The notes beneath the pieces are model-generated. The model did no database searches, was not told the DNA's origin, and saw only the letters and a list, made by a program, of their open reading frames with translations. A program made the position numbers and the translations under genes. A DNA stretch of 64,000 bases, taken from NCBI GenBank assembly GCA_965206645.1, contig CBDBKE010000003.1:544001-608000 (forward strand), in the 5' to 3' direction. The stretch is from Terriglobia bacterium (GTDB lineage Bacteria; Acidobacteriota; Terriglobia; JAJPHL01; JAPKYU01). This document shows, piece after piece, positions 1 to 45,040 of the stretch; within the stretch, counting starts at the first letter, position 1; each line of letters opens with the position of its first letter.

Positions 1-437
1 TGCTGCGAGTGATTCTGGAGAACCCGGCGGCGCGGTCAAGCCTGTTGCAGGTTTTATCCGAGGCTGACCTGTGGGCCGATTGGGTCACTCGGCCCATCTT
101 TTCCGCCCTCTCGGCCCTGGACTTGCCCTCGGGAGAAGCTTTGGACGTGACAGCCCTGTTCGACCGGCTGGAGCCGCCGGATCGCGCGCGTCTAGCCGGG
201 ATCGTCCATCAGGAGGCAGTGGAACTGATCGCGCCGGACAAGGCGCAGCAGTATGTTGAGGAACTTCGCCGGTTAGGTCAATTGCGGCGGGTCCGGGAGC
301 AGAAGCGTCGACAGCTGGCAACTGCTGGGTCCCCGCGCAGTGCGGAGGAGGCGCGGGGACAAGCCCAAATTGCGTTGGAAATCAACCAGATTGATGCCCA
401 ATTGAATGCTCCTCACCACTTGCTCCGCCAAGGCTAA
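1..437 (+). CDS. dnaG: DNA primase, C-terminal part (5'-partial)
   Basis: Helical ORF running in from the window edge directly upstream of rpoD (canonical dnaG-rpoD order); no catalytic motifs visible, so the call rests mainly on synteny. Confidence 0.6.
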   Translation, partial: LRVILENPAARSSLLQVLSEADLWADWVTRPIFSALSALDLPSGEALDVTALFDRLEPPDRARLAGIVHQEAVELIAPDKAQQYVEELRRLGQLRRVREQKRRQLATAGSPRSAEEARGQAQIALEINQIDAQLNAPHHLLRQG

Positions 438-542
438 GCCTGGTTGAGCTAAGCTAAGCCTGGTTGAGCTAAGCCTGGTTGAGCTAAGCCTGGTTGAGCT
501 AAGCCTGGTTGAGCTAAGCCTGGTTGAGCTAAGCTTGGTTGC
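433..542. repeat. 15-bp tandem repeat GCTAAGCCTGGTTGA, about 7 copies
   Basis: Copies at 433, 453, 468, 483, 498, 513 and a degenerate one at 528, with a 5-bp partial at 448; first copy contains the dnaG stop codon. Confidence 0.95.
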
Positions 543-625
543 TCCCCCAAGGCCAAGCCTGGCCCAACAGGCTGGCGCGTCCCTCCTGAACCGCCCGCCA
601 GAGCACGACGATTCCCTGGAATTCG

Positions 626-655
626 TTGACGAAATGGTTCCTTTGTGATTATTAT
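626..655 (+). promoter_or_regulatory. Putative sigma70 promoter of rpoD
   Basis: TTGACG (626-631), 18-bp spacer, TATTAT (650-655) in an AT-rich stretch. Confidence 0.4.
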
Positions 656-775
656 AAGAGATTCTCTTCCTTTTGAAACTCTGGTGGGGGTTAAGTCGTC
701 TAATCTAAAGGGCTGAAGTGTGTCTGTGCCAGCCCACCCCTGGCCGGCGGCGTTCTGGAGAGGAGTTGGCAGGTT

Positions 776-2479
<1,704 letters not shown>

Positions 2480-2610
2480 CCCTGTCCAGTCTGGCAGTCC
2501 CCTTCACCCGCTCCTGCTTGTGCCAGGCCCCCCCCGGGGCCATTGCGCGGCAGGGGCCGACTTCCTCATTGCAACTGTAAACCTTGGATAGGGCGTTCTC
2601 TGGGAGAGGA

Positions 2611-2678
2611 TGGATTGCGTCCAACGCGCGTCTTCACCTGTCAGCTGCCTGAGCCGTCCGCGCGTTGGACGCAATCCA
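2611..2678. repeat. Perfect 20-bp inverted repeat with 28-nt loop (REP-doublet-like or bidirectional terminator)
   Basis: TGGATTGCGTCCAACGCGCG (2611-2630) and its exact reverse complement (2659-2678), between convergent rpoD and cas6. Confidence 0.85.
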
Positions 2679-2702
2679 AAGTCAGTACACACATTCCAGG
2701 CA

Positions 2703-2738
2703 AATTCAGTCCCCTCTTCTTCGGGGGCACTATTATAC
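2703..2738 (-). CRISPR. Solitary CRISPR-repeat-like unit (not an array)
   Basis: Minus strand reads GTATAATAGTGCCCCCGAAGAAGAGGGGACTGAATT: 36 nt, 5' GT, CCCC/GGGG hairpin, 3' ACTGAA-type tail; overlaps the cas6 stop codon; one copy only. Confidence 0.45.
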
Positions 2739-3764
2739 CCTCAGCGCGGCCTTGCGTTGAGTTTCTGGCTGGGCTTCGCTCGAGAATTCTCTACCCTGTA
2801 TTTCGTACCAGCCGTTGCCCCACACCGCATGTTTGCCCACGTGGAGGTATTGGCCGATGTGGAGCAGAGGAAGGAATTCGGCAAGGGCGTCGGCGGTCGG
2901 GGTGCCGAAGAGGGATTCGCCGAGGAAGCCGCCGATTGAGTGGCGGCGGCCGGTGCGGGCCGAGCGGCGCTGGCGCTCTTCCCAGTGCAAGTCCCGGCGA
3001 AGGCAGCCCACAGCCCGAGCGCGCTCAGCCAGTCCCCGGAAGTCCAACTGTAACGGACCGCCGCAGTAAAACGTAGCCAGCGCGTTCAACCGATCCCGCA
3101 GGCGACGCACCAGGTGATGGAACTCGGGCTCACGCACCTGCTTGTCCTCGAAAACCAGATCGGTCGGGGTGAGGAACCTTACCAGGACTTGCGATTGCGG
3201 ATTCCGAATTTCGAATTGGCTAAGTGGAGCCAGCTGCTCGACGCGCTCCAGGCGACAGCGGGCGCGGTTGAGCCCAAGGCCGGCTTCGGCTAGCCGGTCG
3301 AAGCTGAGCAAGAAATGGGGCAAGAGTTCGGTGATGCGGCCCACCAGAATCAGACCAAATTCCAGAGTTTCTCCAGGCGCATATTGGGTTTTTTCGTCAA
3401 TCTCAATGACGCCATTCTGTTTCGTTACCGGCGGCCGAATGACAAAGGGGCGAGGAATGGCCTGGTAATTGGACAGGGCGGGGGAGCCGGGCGGTGGTGC
3501 TGGCTCAAACACCTGAGCGTAGGGGCAGGTGGCGCGCAAATCGCAGCTGAGCGCCCCGGGACATTGCGGGTGGCAGCACTGCGCGCGCAGCGTCGTGCCG
3601 AGCGCGCCGCGCAAGACGTTGCCCTTGTTGCGCGCCGGCATGAACAGCGTCTGCTCGGGCACCAAGCGCAGGCGAAACTGAGCGAATTGCAGCCGGGAAA
3701 ACATAGGTCCGGGGAAGCCGGGCCGCATCCTACGCCGCCAGAGATGGGTTTGCAAGTTCGGCAT
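2733..3764 (-). CDS. cas6: CRISPR pre-crRNA processing endoribonuclease Cas6 (RAMP, Cys-rich DUF2276-like type), orphan
   Basis: GNVLRGALG, Cys cluster CCHPQC..C..CPY, PRPFVI, RFLTP, GFLG, C-terminal Gly loop HVGKHAVWGNG; true start may be ATG 3704. Confidence 0.85.
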   Translation of the reverse strand: MPNLQTHLWRRRMRPGFPGPMFSRLQFAQFRLRLVPEQTLFMPARNKGNVLRGALGTTLRAQCCHPQCPGALSCDLRATCPYAQVFEPAPPPGSPALSNYQAIPRPFVIRPPVTKQNGVIEIDEKTQYAPGETLEFGLILVGRITELLPHFLLSFDRLAEAGLGLNRARCRLERVEQLAPLSQFEIRNPQSQVLVRFLTPTDLVFEDKQVREPEFHHLVRRLRDRLNALATFYCGGPLQLDFRGLAERARAVGCLRRDLHWEERQRRSARTGRRHSIGGFLGESLFGTPTADALAEFLPLLHIGQYLHVGKHAVWGNGWYEIQGREFSSEAQPETQRKAALRV

Positions 3765-3805
3765 GAGACCGGAGACTACAAACTGAAGACTGGAGACCCG
3801 TGAGT

Positions 3806-4328
3806 TTAGCGGCGGGGCAGCAAACGGGTGCGACCAGAGGCGTTCACGACGGTGATCCGGCGAAAGCCCTCCGCGTAGGTGGGCGGGCGCAGCTTGCGCA
3901 CCATGCGCAGCATGACCTCCCGCGGCACGCGGCGTCCCCGGCGGGCGTTGCGCTCCCGGCAGACCTCGAGCGGCACATCGAAGAAGACCGCGTCTACACG
4001 GCAGTCGAACAATGCGGCCAGGCGGAAATAGCCCCGGCGCTCCTGGCGGTTCAGGTTGGTGGCGTCCACATAATGAACGCGCCGCCCCAGTCCTAGGCGC
4101 AGCCGCAGCAGCCAGCGCAGTGCCGAGAAAATCGCGGTCTGCTGCGACTGGTCGGTAACGTCATCGAGCAGCAGCTGGCGCAGCAGGTCGCTGGAGAGCG
4201 GCTGAATGCGGCGTCGGGCGAACCAAGTGGACTTTCCTGAGCCGGGGAGGCCCACAGCCAGAACAATTGTAGATTCCGGATTGCGGGATGAGGATTTCGA
4301 CTTCGGGCTTTGGACCTTGGTCTTTGGA

Positions 4329-4336
<8 letters not shown>
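3806..4336 (-). CDS. Stand-alone Pnkp-type polynucleotide kinase / AAA_33-like P-loop kinase
   Basis: Walker A GLPGSGKST, SSDxxR, DATN, CRERNxxR, EGF, as in the kinase module of bacterial Pnkp; probable TTG start at 4336 overlapping the upstream gene end. Confidence 0.8.
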
Positions 4337-6098
<1,762 letters not shown>

Positions 6099-6131
6099 TT
6101 CTAACTCCTCGGTTTCCTCGGCAACGTAGCG

Positions 6132-6187
6132 CCCGTAGCGGCAGGCTTTACCCTGCCACGTGGCGCTGTAAAGGGCGCCGCTACGGG
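6132..6187. repeat. GTAG-type REP-like doublet
   Basis: CCCGTAGCGGC...GCCGCTACGGG outer inverted repeat enclosing two short hairpins. Confidence 0.6.
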
Positions 6188-6220
6188 AGGCTCTTTCTAT
6201 CGCGCTCCTGTATTTGTCTT

Positions 6221-6296
6221 GTCATTTCGAAGCGAGGAATCTGCTTCTAAGGGGGCATGCCCCGAACAGCAGATCCCTCGCTTCGCTCGGGATGAC
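6221..6296. repeat. GTCAT...ATGAC palindromic interspersed element
   Basis: Arms CGAAGCGAGGAATCTGCT (6228-6245) and AGCAGATCCCTCGCTTCG (6268-6285), bounded by GTCAT/ATGAC. Confidence 0.7.
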
Positions 6297-6351
6297 TCGG
6301 ACTCGAACTGCAAGCAGTGCCCGTTTGTGGCACAGGTCTTGCGTGGCGCCG

Positions 6352-7542
6352 CTACCCTCCCAGGTTCTCGAAAATTCCGGCAGCGCCCATACCCCCGCCA
6401 ATGCACATGGTGACCATGCCATAACGCGCCTTGCGCCGCTTCATTTCCTGCAGCAGGGTGGCAGTCAGCTTCGCGCCGGTGCAGCCCAGCGGGTGACCCA
6501 GGGCGATGGCACCGCCATTGACGTTAACGCGGGCCGGATCCAACTCCTCCTGACGCATCACCGACAGCGCCTGCGCGGCGAAGGCCTCGTTCAGCTCGAT
6601 CAGCTCCATCTGGTCCAGCGTCAGACCGGCCAGCTTTAGCGCCTTGGGAATGGCGAAGGCCGGGCCAATGCCCATTTCCTCGGGCGGCACGCCGGCGGTG
6701 GCAAAAGCCAGGAATCGCGCCAGCGGCTTCAGGCCGAGGGCGCGGGCGCGCTCGGCCGACATGACCACCGCGCCGGCGGCCCCGTCGCTCATCTGGGAGG
6801 AGTTTCCCGCCGTCACCGTGCCGTTGGCGTGGAAAGCCGGCTTCAGTTTCGCAAGGGCCTCCATCGAGGTGTCAGCTCTTGGGCCTTCATCCACTGCAAA
6901 GGTGCCGGTGCGTGTGACAGGCCCGACCTGTCCTGGCGGGCCGGGCTCGGTGAGGCTGACCTCGAGCGGCACAATCTCCTCCTGGAAGCGGCCAGCCTGG
7001 ATGGCGGCCAGCGCCTTGCGATGGCTCTCGCAAGCAAAGCAGTCCTGCGCCTCGCGGTCGACGCCGTACTTGCGGACCAATCGCTCGGCGGTCAGCCCCA
7101 TCGAGAGGTAAGCGTCGGGATAGGTGTCCACCAGGTGCGGATTCGGCGCCGGCTTCTGGCCTCCCATCGGCACCAGGCTCATGGACTCGGTTCCGCCGGC
7201 CAAAATGACGTCGGCAAAGCCGGCCATGATCCGCTCGGCGCCCAGGGCGATGGACTGCAGGCCTGAGGAGCAGAAGCGGTTGACGGTCATGGCGCTGGTG
7301 GTGACGGGCAGGCCGGCCCTGAGGGCTGCGATGCGCGCCACGTTCATCCCCTGCTCGGCTTCCGGCATGGCGCAGCCCAGGATGACGTCTTCAATCTCGG
7401 CAGGGTCCAGGCCGGGCGTGCGCTGGAGCAGCGCCGAAAGCACGGTAGCGGCCATGTCGTCCGGACGCGTTGCCCGCAGCGTGCCTTTGTAGGCCTTGCC
7501 CACCGCGGTCCTGGCAACGGAAACAATGACGGCTTCCTTCAT
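6352..7542 (-). CDS. fadA: Acetyl-CoA C-acyltransferase (thiolase)
   Basis: NRFCSSG, NEAFA, GHPLG, CIGGGMG. Confidence 0.95.
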
Positions 7543-7599
7543 CTGAAGGTCCTCTGCATCCGTAAGAGTCGGCAGGCAAGAATGCCTGCCCACGGGCAA

Positions 7600-10023
<2,424 letters not shown>

Positions 10024-39780: not shown

Positions 39781-39874
39781 GGTGGCCTGCACGCCGGCAT
39801 CCGGCAATTGCCGACGCGGATCCAGGAACGGGGGAGTGCGAAGGGTGGAGTAGAAGGAGTCCTCCTCGCCGGCA

Positions 39875-39986
39875 CCCCATGCACCAGCGACCCCATGCAC
39901 CAGCGACCCCATGCACCAGCGACCCCATGCACCAGCGACCCCATGCACCAGCGACCCCATGCACCAGCGACCCCATGCACCAGCGA
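39875..39986. repeat. Perfect 16-bp tandem repeat CCCCATGCACCAGCGA, 7 copies
   Basis: Seven contiguous identical units with no spacers, upstream of rnc. Confidence 0.97.
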
Positions 39987-40067
39987 CGGGGGATGCTTTC
40001 GTTAGCGAAGGGCCGAGTGGCGCTGGGTCCGGAGTAGCTGCATCCCAGATCCGAAAGCGAAACCCAC

Positions 40068-44316: not shown

Positions 44317-44943
44317 GTGATGAAGCTCCTTCTTGCGGTGCCGCTGATGATGCTAGCTCTGCTCGGAGGTCCGGGGGACGAACGTCGGGCCAGCGAACCG
44401 GAACTCTCAGAAGCGCTGGCCGAACAGATGGCGAAGAAGCTGGCGCGAATCACCGACTGGGCTGCCCGAGCCGAGGCTGACGCAACTAACCCCCGCAACT
44501 CTCGGGTAGTGACAGTTCTGCTGGAAGAGGAAATCAATTCCTATTTCAAATACCGGATGAGCGGGAAGATTCCGGCCGGAGTCTCCCAGGTGCGTTTCCA
44601 TCTGCGCCCCGAGCGTCCTTCGACAACCGCCCTGGTGGACTTCGACCGCTTCAAAGCTGCCTCGCGCCGACCCATTCATCCCCTCCTGGACGCGTTGCTG
44701 CGTGGCCGGCACCCGGTCGCAATGCGCGGCCGTTTTACTTCCTCAAACGGCGCCGGGGTGTTCCATCTCGAGGAGGTCTCCATCGGGAGCTTGGCCCTCC
44801 GCGGTGCCCTGCTGGAGTTGCTCGTCACCCATTTCATCCAGCCCCGCTATCCCACGGCCGCAATCAATCGCCCGTTTGCTTTGCCGGCCAGAATCGACCA
44901 GGTTGTGGTGGAGCAAGGACGCCTTCTCGTCGATCAAAAGTGA
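44317..44943 (+). CDS. Hypothetical secreted protein
   Basis: Signal-like N terminus, EEEINSY motif. Confidence 0.7.
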   Translation: MMKLLLAVPLMMLALLGGPGDERRASEPELSEALAEQMAKKLARITDWAARAEADATNPRNSRVVTVLLEEEINSYFKYRMSGKIPAGVSQVRFHLRPERPSTTALVDFDRFKAASRRPIHPLLDALLRGRHPVAMRGRFTSSNGAGVFHLEEVSIGSLALRGALLELLVTHFIQPRYPTAAINRPFALPARIDQVVVEQGRLLVDQK

Positions 44944-44994
44944 TGGGCAGAAATGATCGGCAGAAGTGATGGGCAGAAATGATGGGCAGAAGTG
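44938..44994. repeat. 13-bp tandem repeat AA(G/A)TGAT(G/C)GGCAG, 4 copies plus partial
   Basis: Units at 44938, 44951, 44964, 44977; first contains the TGA stop of the upstream ORF. Confidence 0.9.
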
Positions 44995-45040
44995 CCCCGT
45001 ACGACTATTCAGCAATGAAAATGAGAAAGAGCCGGCAATG

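What the first reader, a model, noticed from the sequence alone, without database searches (positions are those of the whole stretch)
2703..3764. Orphan cas6 with a single CRISPR-repeat-like hairpin overlapping its own stop codon
Seen: a Cas6 with intact Gly-rich loop sits among housekeeping genes, with no other cas gene or array in 64 kb. Its last codon and stop (GTA TAA) begin a 36-nt unit GTATAATAGTGCCCCCGAAGAAGAGGGGACTGAATT. Established: Cas6 cuts at the base of such repeat hairpins, leaving an 8-nt 5' handle, and solitary repeat units and mini-arrays can be regulatory. Inference: this is either a minimal Cas6 module that processes its own mRNA 3' end or releases a crRNA-like RNA (handle ACTGAATT plus TGCCTGGAATGTGTGTACTGAC...), or the scar of a deleted CRISPR locus. 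The TATAAT in the unit could also act as a -10 box for a small RNA.
Basis: partly seen in the sequence, partly recalled or inferred. Interest (0 to 1): 0.75.

Follow-up and report, generated by a model that had tools for sequence, protein, structure and literature searches.

The report
Lone cas6 with conserved CRISPR-repeat RNA
A stand-alone cas6 gene in a soil acidobacterium is followed by one genuine CRISPR-repeat hairpin that opens a small conserved RNA element, apparently a regulatory CRISPR-like RNA that outlived the CRISPR system it came from.

Summary
ORF 2733-3764(-) is a full-length Cas6 (PADLOC E 5e-74). The 36-nt unit at 2703-2738(-) is a true CRISPR-repeat relative. A covariance model built only from repeats of arrays next to Cas6 homologues in other genomes hits it at 29.4 bits (E 1e-5 in the window). 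It is the only hit in the 4.4-Mb genome.

The unit is not an isolated hairpin or a fresh scar. It opens a ~125-nt element: TATAAT-like box, repeat hairpin, 8-nt tag, ~22-nt linker, 19-20-bp hairpin. This element is kept in 5 of 7 genomes of one Terriglobia family and in 6 metagenome contigs. It always lies convergent to the rpoD 3' end where that flank is known, but not always beside cas6.

Array-bearing relatives place similar solitary repeat units just downstream of cas6 in type I operons, with self-targeting pseudo-spacers (CreA/CreR type). This genome lacks that type I effector and any matching array. cas6 is under purifying selection (dN/dS 0.21). An array-less cas10-csm2-csm3-csm4 module lies 390 kb away.

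Best reading: an exapted CreR-like RNA processed by Cas6. Its present target is unknown. It is a new variant of a known kind.

The parts
2733..3764 (-). cas6 (longest ORF, 343 aa; the true start is possibly an internal Met, since homologues align from about residue 21)
   Evidence: Pfam PF10040 E 2.7e-14. PADLOC Cas6 E 5.2e-74, full length. 622 homologues at E<=1e-10 among the 8000 candidates scored. dN/dS 0.21 against the G003 orthologue.
2703..2738 (-). Solitary CRISPR-repeat-derived unit (pseudo-repeat): 5' part GTATAATAGTGC, stem CCCC/GGGG with an 8-nt loop, and the 8-nt tag ACTGAATT
   Evidence: Model R1, built from repeats of other genomes: 29.4 bits, E 1.2e-5. It is the only hit in the genome. 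It is kept in G003 with 1 mismatch in 26 nt.
2711..2726 (-). Repeat hairpin: 4-bp G-C stem and loop GAAGAAGA. Predicted Cas6 binding site, with the predicted cut between 2711 and 2710.
   Evidence: The stem is invariant in the 10 aligned elements. The stem covaries (C-G to U-A) among the true repeats. The cut site is inferred from what is established for other Cas6 enzymes; it was not tested here.
2732..2737 (-). TATAAT box, a -10-like hexamer inside the 5' part of the unit. Its TAA is the cas6 stop codon.
   Evidence: Conserved as TATAAT, TACAAT or TATACT in all lineages, including those where it is intergenic. The scan found no -35 partner. Promoter function is inferred, not shown.
2681..2702 (-). 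Linker or pseudo-spacer TGCCTGGAATGTGTGTACTGAC. Its 3' half (TGTAYTGAC) is conserved and its 5' half varies.
   Evidence: Alignment A3. No complementary site was found in the genome, in window 1-9000, or in phage or plasmid records.
2611..2680 (-). Long hairpin with a 20-bp stem and a 30-nt loop. It is unique in the genome.
   Evidence: Folding: -61.2 kcal/mol for the whole element, z -6.0. The 19 aligned pairs are 98.9% paired across 10 sequences; 8 pairs change on one side only and stay paired. No other copy was found.
2608..2742 (-). Whole conserved RNA element as matched by model R2
   Evidence: R2 hits G000, G003, G001, G004 and G006 only, that is 5 of 151 genomes of the class sample, all in family f1. 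Six metagenome contigs also carry it.
776..2479 (+). rpoD, convergent with the element. It is the element's constant neighbour.
   Evidence: tblastn finds rpoD next to the element in G003 and G001, in L115-L120 and in G006, where the rpoD stop lies 8 nt from the hairpin.
3806..4396 (-). AAA_33 kinase-like gene upstream of cas6. This is housekeeping-type context, syntenic in G003, G001 and G004.
   Evidence: Pfam PF13671 E 1.7e-23. Synteny.

Best explanation
The 36-nt unit is a real descendant of the 37-nt repeats that Cas6 proteins of this family process in related Acidobacteriota. It is the 5' module of a ~125-nt RNA gene read on the cas6 strand. The gene comprises the pseudo-repeat (whose 5' part holds a conserved TATAAT box), the Cas6-type 4-bp hairpin, the 8-nt tag ACUGAAUU, a ~22-nt linker and a 19-20-bp terminal hairpin.

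The element most likely derives from the CreA/CreR-type crRNA-like genes that sit immediately downstream of cas6 in type I (I-A/I-B-like) operons of relatives. In this Terriglobia family the type I effector, the adaptation genes and the arrays are gone. cas6 and the cr-like RNA have both been kept under purifying selection.

Proposed working (inferred, not shown):
- The RNA is made as the 3' extension of the cas6 mRNA and/or from the embedded -10 box.
- Cas6 binds the hairpin and cuts between 2711 and 2710.
- One product is a cas6 mRNA that ends in a Cas6-bound hairpin, which would give product feedback on its own message.
- The other product is a ~100-nt RNA with a 5' ACUGAAUU tag, protected at its 3' end by the long hairpin.

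The present target of this RNA is unknown.
For: 1. Cas6 identity.

2. Repeat identity:
- Arrays were found on the same strand as cas6 homologues in 19 of the 85 loci scanned. Most have repeats of the form ...CCCCGATGAAGAGGGGACTGAAAG.
- Model R1, built from 14 of these repeats, hits the window unit at 29.4 bits, and that is the only hit in the genome.
- G003 and G001 each have exactly one hit, after cas6. G004 has one hit, 2.4 kb downstream on the same strand.

3. Conservation beyond neutral expectation:
- Element identity is 118/135 to G003, 88/119 to G004 and 95/123 to L115.
- For cas6, the proportion of synonymous differences to G003 is 0.457 (dS 0.70). dS exceeds 1.1 to G004 and G006.
- Sequence just beyond the long hairpin does not align between G000 and G003.

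4. Strand and transcription unit:
- All one-sided changes in the long stem keep a pair as G-U or U-G on this strand.
- L115 folds at -59.9 kcal/mol on this strand against -35.3 on the other.
- In L117 the element is followed by its own hairpin plus UUUUUU, while rpoD has a separate terminator on the other strand.

5. Origin:
- L040 shows cas6-cas3-cas8-cas7-cas5-cas1-cas2-cas4-array.
- R1 finds solitary or paired units 100-400 nt downstream of cas6 in L087, L076, L084, L096 and L102.
- In L087 and L076 the pseudo-spacer matches 14/16 and 15/16 a site on the other strand, right after the cas6 stop and within a promoter-like TTGACA...TAAC(C/A)T.
- This is the published architecture of CreA between cas6 and cas8 (10.1101/2023.03.10.532045, passages read) and of the repeat-like elements enriched near cas6 of type I-B loci (PMC10120712, passages read).

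6. cas6 is maintained:
- ORFs are intact in G000, G003, G004, G006 and G010, with dN/dS 0.21-0.27.
- In G001, cas6 is split by an insertion carrying a DDE transposase and the hairpin has lost 2 nt of its 5' arm. Joint decay would be expected if the two work together, but this is a single case.

7. Weak RNA hint: one 151-nt contig of a metatranscriptome run covers 2665-2815 without a difference. It joins the cas6 3' end, the unit and the linker.
Against: - No cleavage, RNA end or binding was observed. The RNA-library contigs have depth 2-5, and DNA carry-over is not excluded.
- No target for the linker or pseudo-spacer was found in the genome, in the window, or in phage or plasmid records.
- The cognate type I effector was not found: tblastn at 1e-3 with the 7 proteins of L040 gave no hit. 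The known CreR mechanism therefore cannot operate.
- cas6 is not beside the element in G006 or in the 6 metagenome contigs. The tightest linkage is to rpoD, not to cas6.
- cas6 orthologues in G005 and G010 have no detectable unit.
- Covariation in the long hairpin is not significant by shuffling (113 of 500 shuffles reach the observed value). The 10 sequences represent only about 5 lineages.
- No -35 box was found. A start about 7 nt after the -10 box would fall inside the stem.
- The last two tag positions differ from the family consensus (AATT against AAAG).
Confidence: 0.6

Rival explanations
1. Inert relic. The unit is the last repeat, or a regulatory mini-array, left after deletion of a type I locus. 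It has no present function, and its similarity among relatives reflects only common descent.
For: - The type I effector genes and matching arrays were not found in this genome.
- Other CRISPR remnants in the same genome show ongoing decay: the I-E remnant and a Cas1 fragment.
- In G001 both cas6 and the hairpin are damaged.
- Shmakov et al. judged mini-arrays near type III loci to be degraded and non-functional (PMC10120712, passage read).
Against: - The unit is kept nearly unchanged (hairpin stem invariant, AAGAGGGGAC invariant) in lineages whose cas6 has dS above 1.1 and whose rpoD protein is only 78% identical.
- The flanks on both sides cannot be aligned.
- The upstream neighbour has been replaced several times while the element stayed whole.
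- cas6 itself has dN/dS 0.21-0.27.
Confidence: 0.12
2. The element serves rpoD. It would act as a convergent antisense or 3'-end element: a barrier or terminator for rpoD read-through, or an antisense RNA acting on the rpoD 3' UTR. The repeat hairpin would be retained as a structural or protein-binding module, whether or not Cas6 is involved.
For: - rpoD is the neighbour in every lineage where that flank is known: G000, G001, G003, G006 and L115-L120.
- In G006 the rpoD stop lies 8 nt from the hairpin.
- The cas6 side is variable.
- In G006 the element folds slightly better on the rpoD-sense strand (-55.4 against -50.8 kcal/mol).
Against: - In L117 rpoD has its own canonical terminator, separate from the element.
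- The G-U changes and the L115 folding energies favour the cas6-sense strand.
- This reading gives no reason for keeping a Cas6-type hairpin plus tag at 21 of 22 identity to CRISPR repeats.
- All 5 genomes that carry the element also carry cas6, one of them disrupted.
Confidence: 0.15
3. Single fixed guide of a domesticated type III system. The Cas6-cut RNA (tag plus linker and the 5' arm of the hairpin) would be loaded into the array-less Cas10-Csm2-Csm3-Csm4 complex encoded 390 kb away and direct it to a conserved RNA.
For: - The four-gene module is conserved in gene order in 7 loci of the order. No interspaced repeat was found in the fetched flanks.
- Csm3 is found in 8 of 10 relatives of the order and in 0 of 30 genomes of other families in the sample.
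- Cas10 keeps the GGDD motif (sequence printed).
- The genome has no other R1-type repeat. The generic repeat scan found no array other than the 3-repeat I-E remnant.
- That type III complexes use crRNAs cut by a Cas6 shared with type I systems is recalled from the literature. It was not checked here.
Against: - The four f2 genomes have the module but no element.
- G005 has the module and cas6, but no element was found.
- G004 and G006 have the element, but no Csm3 was found. They are only 72% and 71% complete.
- In G001 the module is intact although cas6 is disrupted.
- The part of the pseudo-spacer next to the tag is the least conserved part.
- No target was found.
Confidence: 0.12

Closest known systems
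CreA/CreR cr-like RNAs (degenerate mini-CRISPRs) of type I-B loci, for example between cas6 and cas8 of Haloarcula hispanica (10.1101/2023.03.10.532045, passages read)
   Same: - A degenerate repeat lies directly downstream of cas6 on the same strand.
- It has a Cas6-type hairpin with an 8-nt tag, followed by a short pseudo-spacer.
- Relatives of this cas6 (L087, L076) show the full circuit, with the pseudo-spacer matching a promoter-like site just after cas6.
   Different: - There is one pseudo-repeat, not two.
- No cognate Cascade or Cas3 genes were found in the genome.
- No promoter target was found.
- A long 19-20-bp hairpin follows.
- The element is inherited vertically across genera next to rpoD, and in some lineages without an adjacent cas6.
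Standalone repeat-like elements in CRISPR-cas loci (Shmakov et al. 2023, PMC10120712, passages read)
   Same: It is a repeat-like sequence outside an array, near cas6 of a type I-B-like lineage. That paper reports 27% enrichment near cas6 in I-B loci.
   Different: That survey scanned inside and around complete CRISPR-cas loci. Here nothing of the locus is left but cas6. The element's position is conserved among related genomes, unlike the type III-associated mini-arrays that the paper dismisses. The paper's supplementary files could not be opened, so I cannot say whether this lineage is listed there.
Racr / solitary repeat units of phages and plasmids (PMC10651486, listing and start of abstract only)
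   Same: A single repeat mimic that is expected to bind Cas6 or Cas proteins.
   Different: This one is chromosomal, syntenic and vertically inherited among housekeeping genes. It sits next to the host's own cas6, and no mobile-element context was seen.
Degenerate terminal repeat of a CRISPR array
   Same: The 3' end of the tag departs from the consensus, as terminal repeats often do (recalled knowledge).
   Different: - No second repeat was found anywhere in the genome.
- The unit is conserved at high divergence.
- In relatives the arrays lie 3-10 kb from cas6, whereas solitary units lie 100-400 nt from it.
Type III-A/D (Csm) effector modules
   Same: Cas10 with a GGDD motif, Csm2, Csm3 and Csm4 are present in the same genome.
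   Different: The module is not linked to cas6. The flanks hold no array, csm5, csm6 or adaptation genes. No HD-domain family was reported for Cas10 by the Pfam scan. A link to the element is not shown.

Membership tests
Cas6 (Pfam PF10040 / PADLOC Cas6) | Profile match over the whole domain, above the curated cut-off | tested here: met
   PF10040: 54.1 bits against a cut-off of 25. PADLOC PDLC01477: E 5.2e-74, residues 24-323.
Cas6 (Pfam PF10040 / PADLOC Cas6) | C-terminal glycine-rich loop | tested here: met
   HVGKHAVWGNGWY is present. G304, H308, G310, G316 and G318 are invariant in the 29 sequences of A1.
Cas6 (Pfam PF10040 / PADLOC Cas6) | Endoribonuclease activity on a repeat hairpin | not testable with these tools
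   No assay is possible. The only solved relative by sequence is the MMB-1 Cas6, at E 0.0012 over the C-terminal loop.
CRISPR repeat of the cas6-linked 37-nt family | Sequence and hairpin match to the family model | tested here: met
   R1: 29.4 bits, E 1.2e-5 in the window and 8.3e-4 in the genome.
CRISPR array | At least two or three repeats separated by unique spacers | tested here: not met
   There is one unit only in the genome, and no direct repeat of it in the window.
CreR/CreA regulatory cr-like RNA | Degenerate repeat(s) beside cas genes, outside the array | tested here: met
   The unit abuts cas6. Analogous units lie downstream of cas6 in L087, L076, L084, L096 and L102.
CreR/CreA regulatory cr-like RNA | Pseudo-spacer partly complementary to a promoter of cas or toxin genes | tested here: not met
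   No site with at least 12 of 16 matches in window 1-9000. No genome site better than 15 nt, E about 0.1. The feature is met in L087 (14/16) and L076 (15/16).
CreR/CreA regulatory cr-like RNA | Cognate type I effector (Cascade) in the same genome | tested here: not met
   tblastn with Cas3, Cas8, Cas7, Cas5, Cas1, Cas2 and Cas4 of L040 gave no hit at 1e-3. The RAMP family search hits only Csm3.
Type III CRISPR-Cas system | Cas10 plus Csm/Cmr backbone subunits | tested here: met
   Cas10, Csm2, Csm3 and Csm4 at C3:154322-159651. This lies outside the window.
Type III CRISPR-Cas system | An associated array that supplies crRNAs | tested here: not met
   No interspaced repeats in the module flanks of 7 genomes. 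No array in the genome except the 3-repeat I-E remnant.
Intrinsic terminator | G+C-rich hairpin followed by a U run | tested here: inconclusive
   G000: the long hairpin has no U run. G006: UUUU follows the hairpin. L117: a separate hairpin plus UUUUUU follows the element.
Sigma-70 promoter | -35 and -10 hexamers at 16-18 nt spacing | tested here: not met
   The -10 box is a perfect TATAAT, but the scan found no -35 partner.

The most novel reading that the evidence does not exclude
A whole Terriglobia order carries a vertically inherited, array-less type III module (Cas10-Csm2-Csm3-Csm4). In one of its families this module would be programmed by a single, fixed, genome-encoded guide. That guide would be the Cas6-cut cr-like RNA next to rpoD, salvaged from a lost type I system. 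This would make a CRISPR effector domesticated for a housekeeping RNA-directed task, possibly acting on convergent rpoD read-through transcripts, which are the only perfectly complementary RNA the genome can make.
Probability: 0.12. Interest if true: 0.85.

Novelty: new variant of a known kind. Interest (0 to 1): 0.6.

Why it matters
Cr-like regulatory RNAs (CreA, CreR, crlRNAs) are known as accessories of complete CRISPR-Cas loci. Here the pair 'cas6 plus one cr-like RNA' appears to have outlived its effector, its adaptation genes and its arrays. It has been kept by selection across genera, beside the gene for the primary sigma factor.

If Cas6 still processes this RNA, it would be a clear case of exaptation of CRISPR parts for a non-immune role, and a natural minimal Cas6-substrate pair. 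Together with the conserved array-less Csm module in the same order, it gives a concrete, testable place to ask what CRISPR components do when there is no array.

If the element proves inert, the finding still documents how type I loci decay in Acidobacteriota.

Tried and rejected
- Rfam alone could not settle repeat identity. CRISPR-DR32 aligned end to end at only 19.6 bits against a gathering score of 48, E 1.2. I replaced it with my own model R1.
- The two attempts to run the Rfam family through the genome search gave a machine error and were not repeated.
- I considered the long hairpin as a repeated REP- or MITE-like element. It has no other copy in the genome, so I rejected that.
- The 15-nt match at C3:482281-482295 lies inside a coding-looking stretch and reads as chance.
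- I considered a degenerate second repeat in the loop of the long hairpin (GGTGAAGA). That stretch is missing in G004 and in the metagenome lineage, so I rejected it.
- RNAalifold proposed an outer helix GGUA/UGCC around the repeat hairpin. It does not covary and is broken in G004, so I left it out of R2.
- Searches for a target of the pseudo-spacer found nothing usable. Phage records gave a best E of 0.8, in Klebsiella and Streptococcus phages. Plasmids gave a best E of 2. The IMG/VR exact pattern gave 2 unrelated low-GC contigs in the same sense.
- The simple promoter and terminator scans found nothing at the element. The terminator in L117 was seen only by folding.
- Parts of cas6 lack cover in the two RNA libraries and the depth there is low. 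I draw nothing from that.
- The conserved block downstream of csm4 is a tRNA gene, not a cr-like RNA (read by eye; ARAGORN was not run).
Supplementary files of papers were closed, so the supplementary tables of PMC10120712 may list loci of this kind that I could not see.
- Literature: 'orphan cas6' matched 0 papers. The search on Cas6 / standalone / solitary repeat / crRNA-like returned 8 papers, of which I saw the listing only. None is, by title, about a cas6-plus-solo-repeat pair kept without an effector. I do not claim more than that.
Full report
WHAT IS THERE. On the minus strand an ORF runs from 3764 to 2733 (343 aa). It is a Cas6: Pfam PF10040 E 2.7e-14 and PADLOC Cas6 model PDLC01477 E 5.2e-74 over residues 24-323. 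NCBIfam gave no match. A database search returned 622 homologues at E<=1e-10 among the 8000 candidates scored, all carrying PF27225 plus PF10040. In a 29-sequence alignment the window protein keeps every invariant column, including the Gly-rich loop. The ORF ends GTA TAA, and these six bases begin the 36-mer GTATAATAGTGCCCCCGAAGAAGAGGGGACTGAATT (2738-2703). The stem is CCCC/GGGG with an 8-nt loop, followed by ACTGAATT. rpoD (776-2479, +) converges on it. An AAA_33 kinase-like gene, an acyl-CoA dehydrogenase and a thiolase lie upstream of cas6.

IS THE UNIT A CRISPR REPEAT? The unit is unique in the window and in the 4.41-Mb, 4-contig genome (28-nt core, up to 6 mismatches). Rfam gave only a sub-threshold end-to-end alignment to CRISPR-DR32 (19.6 bits, gathering score 48, E 1.2). 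I therefore asked which repeats the relatives of this Cas6 actually sit next to.

The search for related loci returned 74 loci with up to 10 kb of flank. By their record titles they are mostly Acidobacteriota and Nitrospirota. A k-mer array finder found arrays in 19 of the 85 loci scanned. The typical repeat is GTTGAAGAGTCTTCCCCGATGAAGAGGGGACTGAAAG. All 263 matches of the later model search lie on the cas6 strand. Fourteen such repeats align with a covarying stem, C-G to U-A.

A covariance model of these repeats (R1, window not included) hits 2705-2738(-) at 29.4 bits, E 1.2e-5 with filters off; the next best hit scores 11.7 bits. In that alignment 21 of 22 positions from the stem through ACUGAA are identical. 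It is the only hit in the genome (E 8.3e-4). The unit is therefore a genuine relative of the repeats this Cas6 family processes, on the correct strand, with the hairpin and six of the eight tag positions intact. E-values from these models are rough by the tool's own account.

THE GENOME IS NOT FREE OF CAS GENES. A RAMP search found Csm3 at C3:156.6 kb. The locus reads Cas10 (531 aa, GGDD present, no HD-domain family reported by the Pfam scan), Csm2, Csm3, an ankyrin/DUF2059 gene and Csm4, then an IS transposase. A tRNA gene follows csm4 (read by eye). There is also a type I-E remnant at C4:~1993 kb, with a Cas1e C-terminal fragment, Cas2e and three repeats, flanked by transposase genes. A 41-aa Cas1 fragment lies at C3:432.3 kb. 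My array finder saw no other array; its other hits are Sel1-type protein repeats. The proteins of a typical type I operon headed by a homologous cas6 (L040: cas6-cas3-cas8-cas7-cas5-cas1-cas2-cas4-array) have no tblastn match at 1e-3 in this genome.

THE UNIT BELONGS TO A LARGER CONSERVED ELEMENT. Orthologous cas6 genes exist in the genus (G003 78% aa; G001 89-94% in two pieces), in the family (G004, G005, G006 at 61-65%) and in the order (G010 56-59%).
- In G003 and G001 the region is syntenic from rpoD to the thiolase.
- In G004 the kinase, the dehydrogenase and cas6 are kept together.
- The G000-G003 alignment shows cas6 at about 82% nucleotide identity. The stretch from GGTATAAT through the long hairpin is far better kept (118/135). 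Everything beyond the hairpin cannot be aligned.
- In G003 a 9-nt duplication places the cas6 stop 12 nt before the unit, so the overlap with the stop is incidental.
- In G004 the complete element lies 2.4 kb downstream of cas6, beyond a TPR-repeat gene: TACAAT box, CCCC-UGUCAAGA-GGGG, ACUGAAGU, linker and long hairpin.
- A pattern from the conserved hairpin arm found 6 metagenome contigs. All carry the whole element convergent to rpoD (78-93% aa identity). None shows cas6, the kinase or the dehydrogenase on the contig, and their upstream contexts differ.
- A model of the whole element (R2) finds it in G000, G003, G001, G004 and G006. That is 5 of 11 genomes of the order and 5 of 151 of the class sample, all in family f1.
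- In G006 the element lies 8 nt from the rpoD stop and cas6 is on another contig.

STRUCTURE AND STRAND. The element folds into the repeat hairpin and a 19-20-bp hairpin (-61.2 kcal/mol, z -6.0). Across 10 sequences, 99.1% of cells are paired, against 31-51% when the partners are slid. In the long stem 10 pairs never vary, 8 vary on one side only and stay paired as G-U or U-G, and 1 changes on both sides. Shuffling does not make this significant (113 of 500), and the 10 sequences represent only about five lineages. The G-U pairs would be A-C mismatches on the rpoD-sense strand. L115 folds at -59.9 against -35.3 kcal/mol, G000 at -61.2 against -54.2, and G006 at -50.8 against -55.4. In L117 the element is followed by its own strong hairpin plus UUUUUU, while rpoD has a separate terminator on the other strand. 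The element is therefore best read as a transcription unit on the cas6 strand that ends just after the long hairpin.

SELECTION. The cas6 ORFs are intact in G000, G003, G004, G006 and G010. Nei-Gojobori estimates give dN/dS 0.21 (dS 0.70) for G000-G003 and 0.23-0.27 (dS above 1.1) against G004 and G006. At these distances the element keeps 87%, 74% and 77% identity, with invariant blocks at GGTA.AAT (the variable position being the T/C of TATAAT/TACAAT), CCC, AAGAGGGGACUGA, UGACUUUGGAUUG and UCCAACGCG; the first and third of these blocks are counted on the 10 sequences of alignment A3, which does not include G006, whose box is TATACT and whose tag begins ACCGA. In G001 cas6 is split by a 2.7-kb insertion carrying a DDE transposase, with 8 bp of the window (3218-3225) aligned on both sides of the insertion, as a target-site duplication would give. 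In that genome the hairpin has also lost two C of its 5' arm.

ORIGIN. R1 also finds solitary or paired units just downstream of cas6, outside the arrays, in L087, L076, L084, L096 and L102, and upstream of cas6 in L075. In L087 and L076 the sequence after the tag matches 14/16 and 15/16 a site on the opposite strand. That site lies right after the cas6 stop, inside a TTGACA...TAAC(C/A)T promoter-like stretch. In L087 the unit ends in a hairpin plus a U run and is followed by cas3. This is the architecture published for CreA/CreR: a degenerate mini-CRISPR between cas6 and cas8 whose RNA guides Cascade to repress the cas promoter (10.1101/2023.03.10.532045, passages read). It also fits the enrichment of repeat-like sequences near cas6 in type I-B loci (PMC10120712, passages read). 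The simplest history (an inference) is that a type I locus of this kind lay next to rpoD. Everything downstream of the cr-like RNA was lost, while cas6 and the RNA gene stayed. Later cas6 was separated from it (G004), moved or lost nearby (G006, metagenome lineage), or disrupted (G001).

HOW IT LIKELY WORKS NOW. Shown: a maintained Cas6; a maintained Cas6-type hairpin and tag on the same strand; a conserved downstream RNA structure; no cognate type I effector found; no self-target. Inferred: Cas6 binds the hairpin and cuts between 2711 and 2710. This would leave a cas6 mRNA that ends in the hairpin, and a ~100-nt tagged RNA capped by the long hairpin.

The TATAAT box varies only at hexamer positions 3 and 5 (TACAAT, TATACT). 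It is the 5' border of conservation in lineages with unrelated upstream DNA. This fits a -10 element of an autonomous unit. However, no -35 box is seen, and a start 7 nt downstream would fall inside the stem. In this genus, read-through from cas6 is equally possible. One 151-nt contig of an RNA library spans 2665-2815 without a difference, but at depth 2.1, and DNA carry-over is not excluded.

The downstream role is open. I rank the options as follows:
- Cas6-dependent processing with feedback, plus a tagged small RNA of unknown target (confidence 0.6).
- A role tied to rpoD (0.15).
- An inert relic (0.12).
- A fixed guide for the Csm module (0.12).

THE CSM MODULE. cas10-csm2-csm3-csm4 is conserved in that order in G000, G001, G003, G005, G007, G008 (csm3 interrupted by a TAA) and G009. 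No interspaced repeat was found in the fetched flanks. Csm3 is found in 8 of 10 relatives of the order and in 0 of 30 genomes of other families in the sample. Genes inserted between csm3 and csm4 differ: ankyrin/DUF2059 in G000, a Ser/Thr kinase-TPR gene in G003, and none in G001 or G005. R1-type arrays occur in only 4 of 40 relatives (G008, G019, G023, G035) and in none of family f1. The module's distribution does not track the element: f2 has the module without the element. This counts against the single-guide reading, but the module is itself an unusual, apparently vertically inherited, array-less type III set.

VERDICT. What lies at 2703-3764 is a maintained stand-alone cas6 plus the first part of a family-specific, CRISPR-derived RNA element. 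I rate it a new variant of a known kind (CreA/CreR-like cr-like RNA), without its effector and exapted or at least long retained. Interest 0.6.

Noticed in passing
G000:C3:154322-159651 (outside the window; L024 4322-9651): Array-less type III module cas10(GGDD; no HD-domain family in the Pfam scan)-csm2-csm3-[ankyrin/DUF2059 gene]-csm4. It is flanked by an rve transposase and a tRNA gene. The four-gene core is conserved in gene order across the order, and different genes are inserted between csm3 and csm4 (a Ser/Thr kinase-TPR gene in G003).
   Followed up: partly
G000:C4:~1993121-1993960 (L025 7121-7960): Decayed type I-E locus: a Cas1e C-terminal fragment, Cas2e, and three repeats GTTTCCCCCGCACACGCGGGGATGGACCCG (the third degenerate), between transposase genes.
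   Followed up: partly
G000:C3:432293-432415 (L002): A 41-aa Cas1-like fragment (Pfam PF01867, 28.5 bits) surrounded by stop codons. It appears to be a pseudogene remnant.
   Followed up: partly
L104 10445-13168 (G001): cas6 of the sister species is interrupted by a 2.7-kb insertion. The insertion carries a DDE_Tnp_1_4 transposase and a xylose-isomerase-like TIM-barrel gene; 8 bp of the window (3218-3225) align on both sides of it, as a target-site duplication would give.
   Followed up: yes
L087 11160-11340; L076 3480-3745: Complete CreR-like circuits in type I loci of other Acidobacteriota. A solitary or paired pseudo-repeat lies after cas6, and its pseudo-spacer matches (14/16 and 15/16) a promoter-like site just after the cas6 stop.
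   Followed up: partly
window 417-556: Seven tandem copies of a 15-nt unit (AGCTAAGCCTGGTTG) between the upstream ORF and rpoD. On the other strand they read as a PGLAQ peptide repeat.
   Followed up: no
window 39858-40003 and 44935-44999: Tandem repeats: a 16-nt unit ACCCCATGCACCAGCG in about 7 copies, and a 13-nt unit in 4 copies.
   Followed up: no
window 2753: A strain variant in DNA run X4 carries a 15-nt in-frame insertion in the non-conserved C-terminal tail of cas6. The tail also differs among genera.
   Followed up: no
window 2504-2570 (between rpoD stop and the long hairpin): A G+C-rich palindromic stretch (GGCCCC...GGGGGGGGCC) that does not align with G003. It may be the rpoD terminator region.
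   Followed up: no
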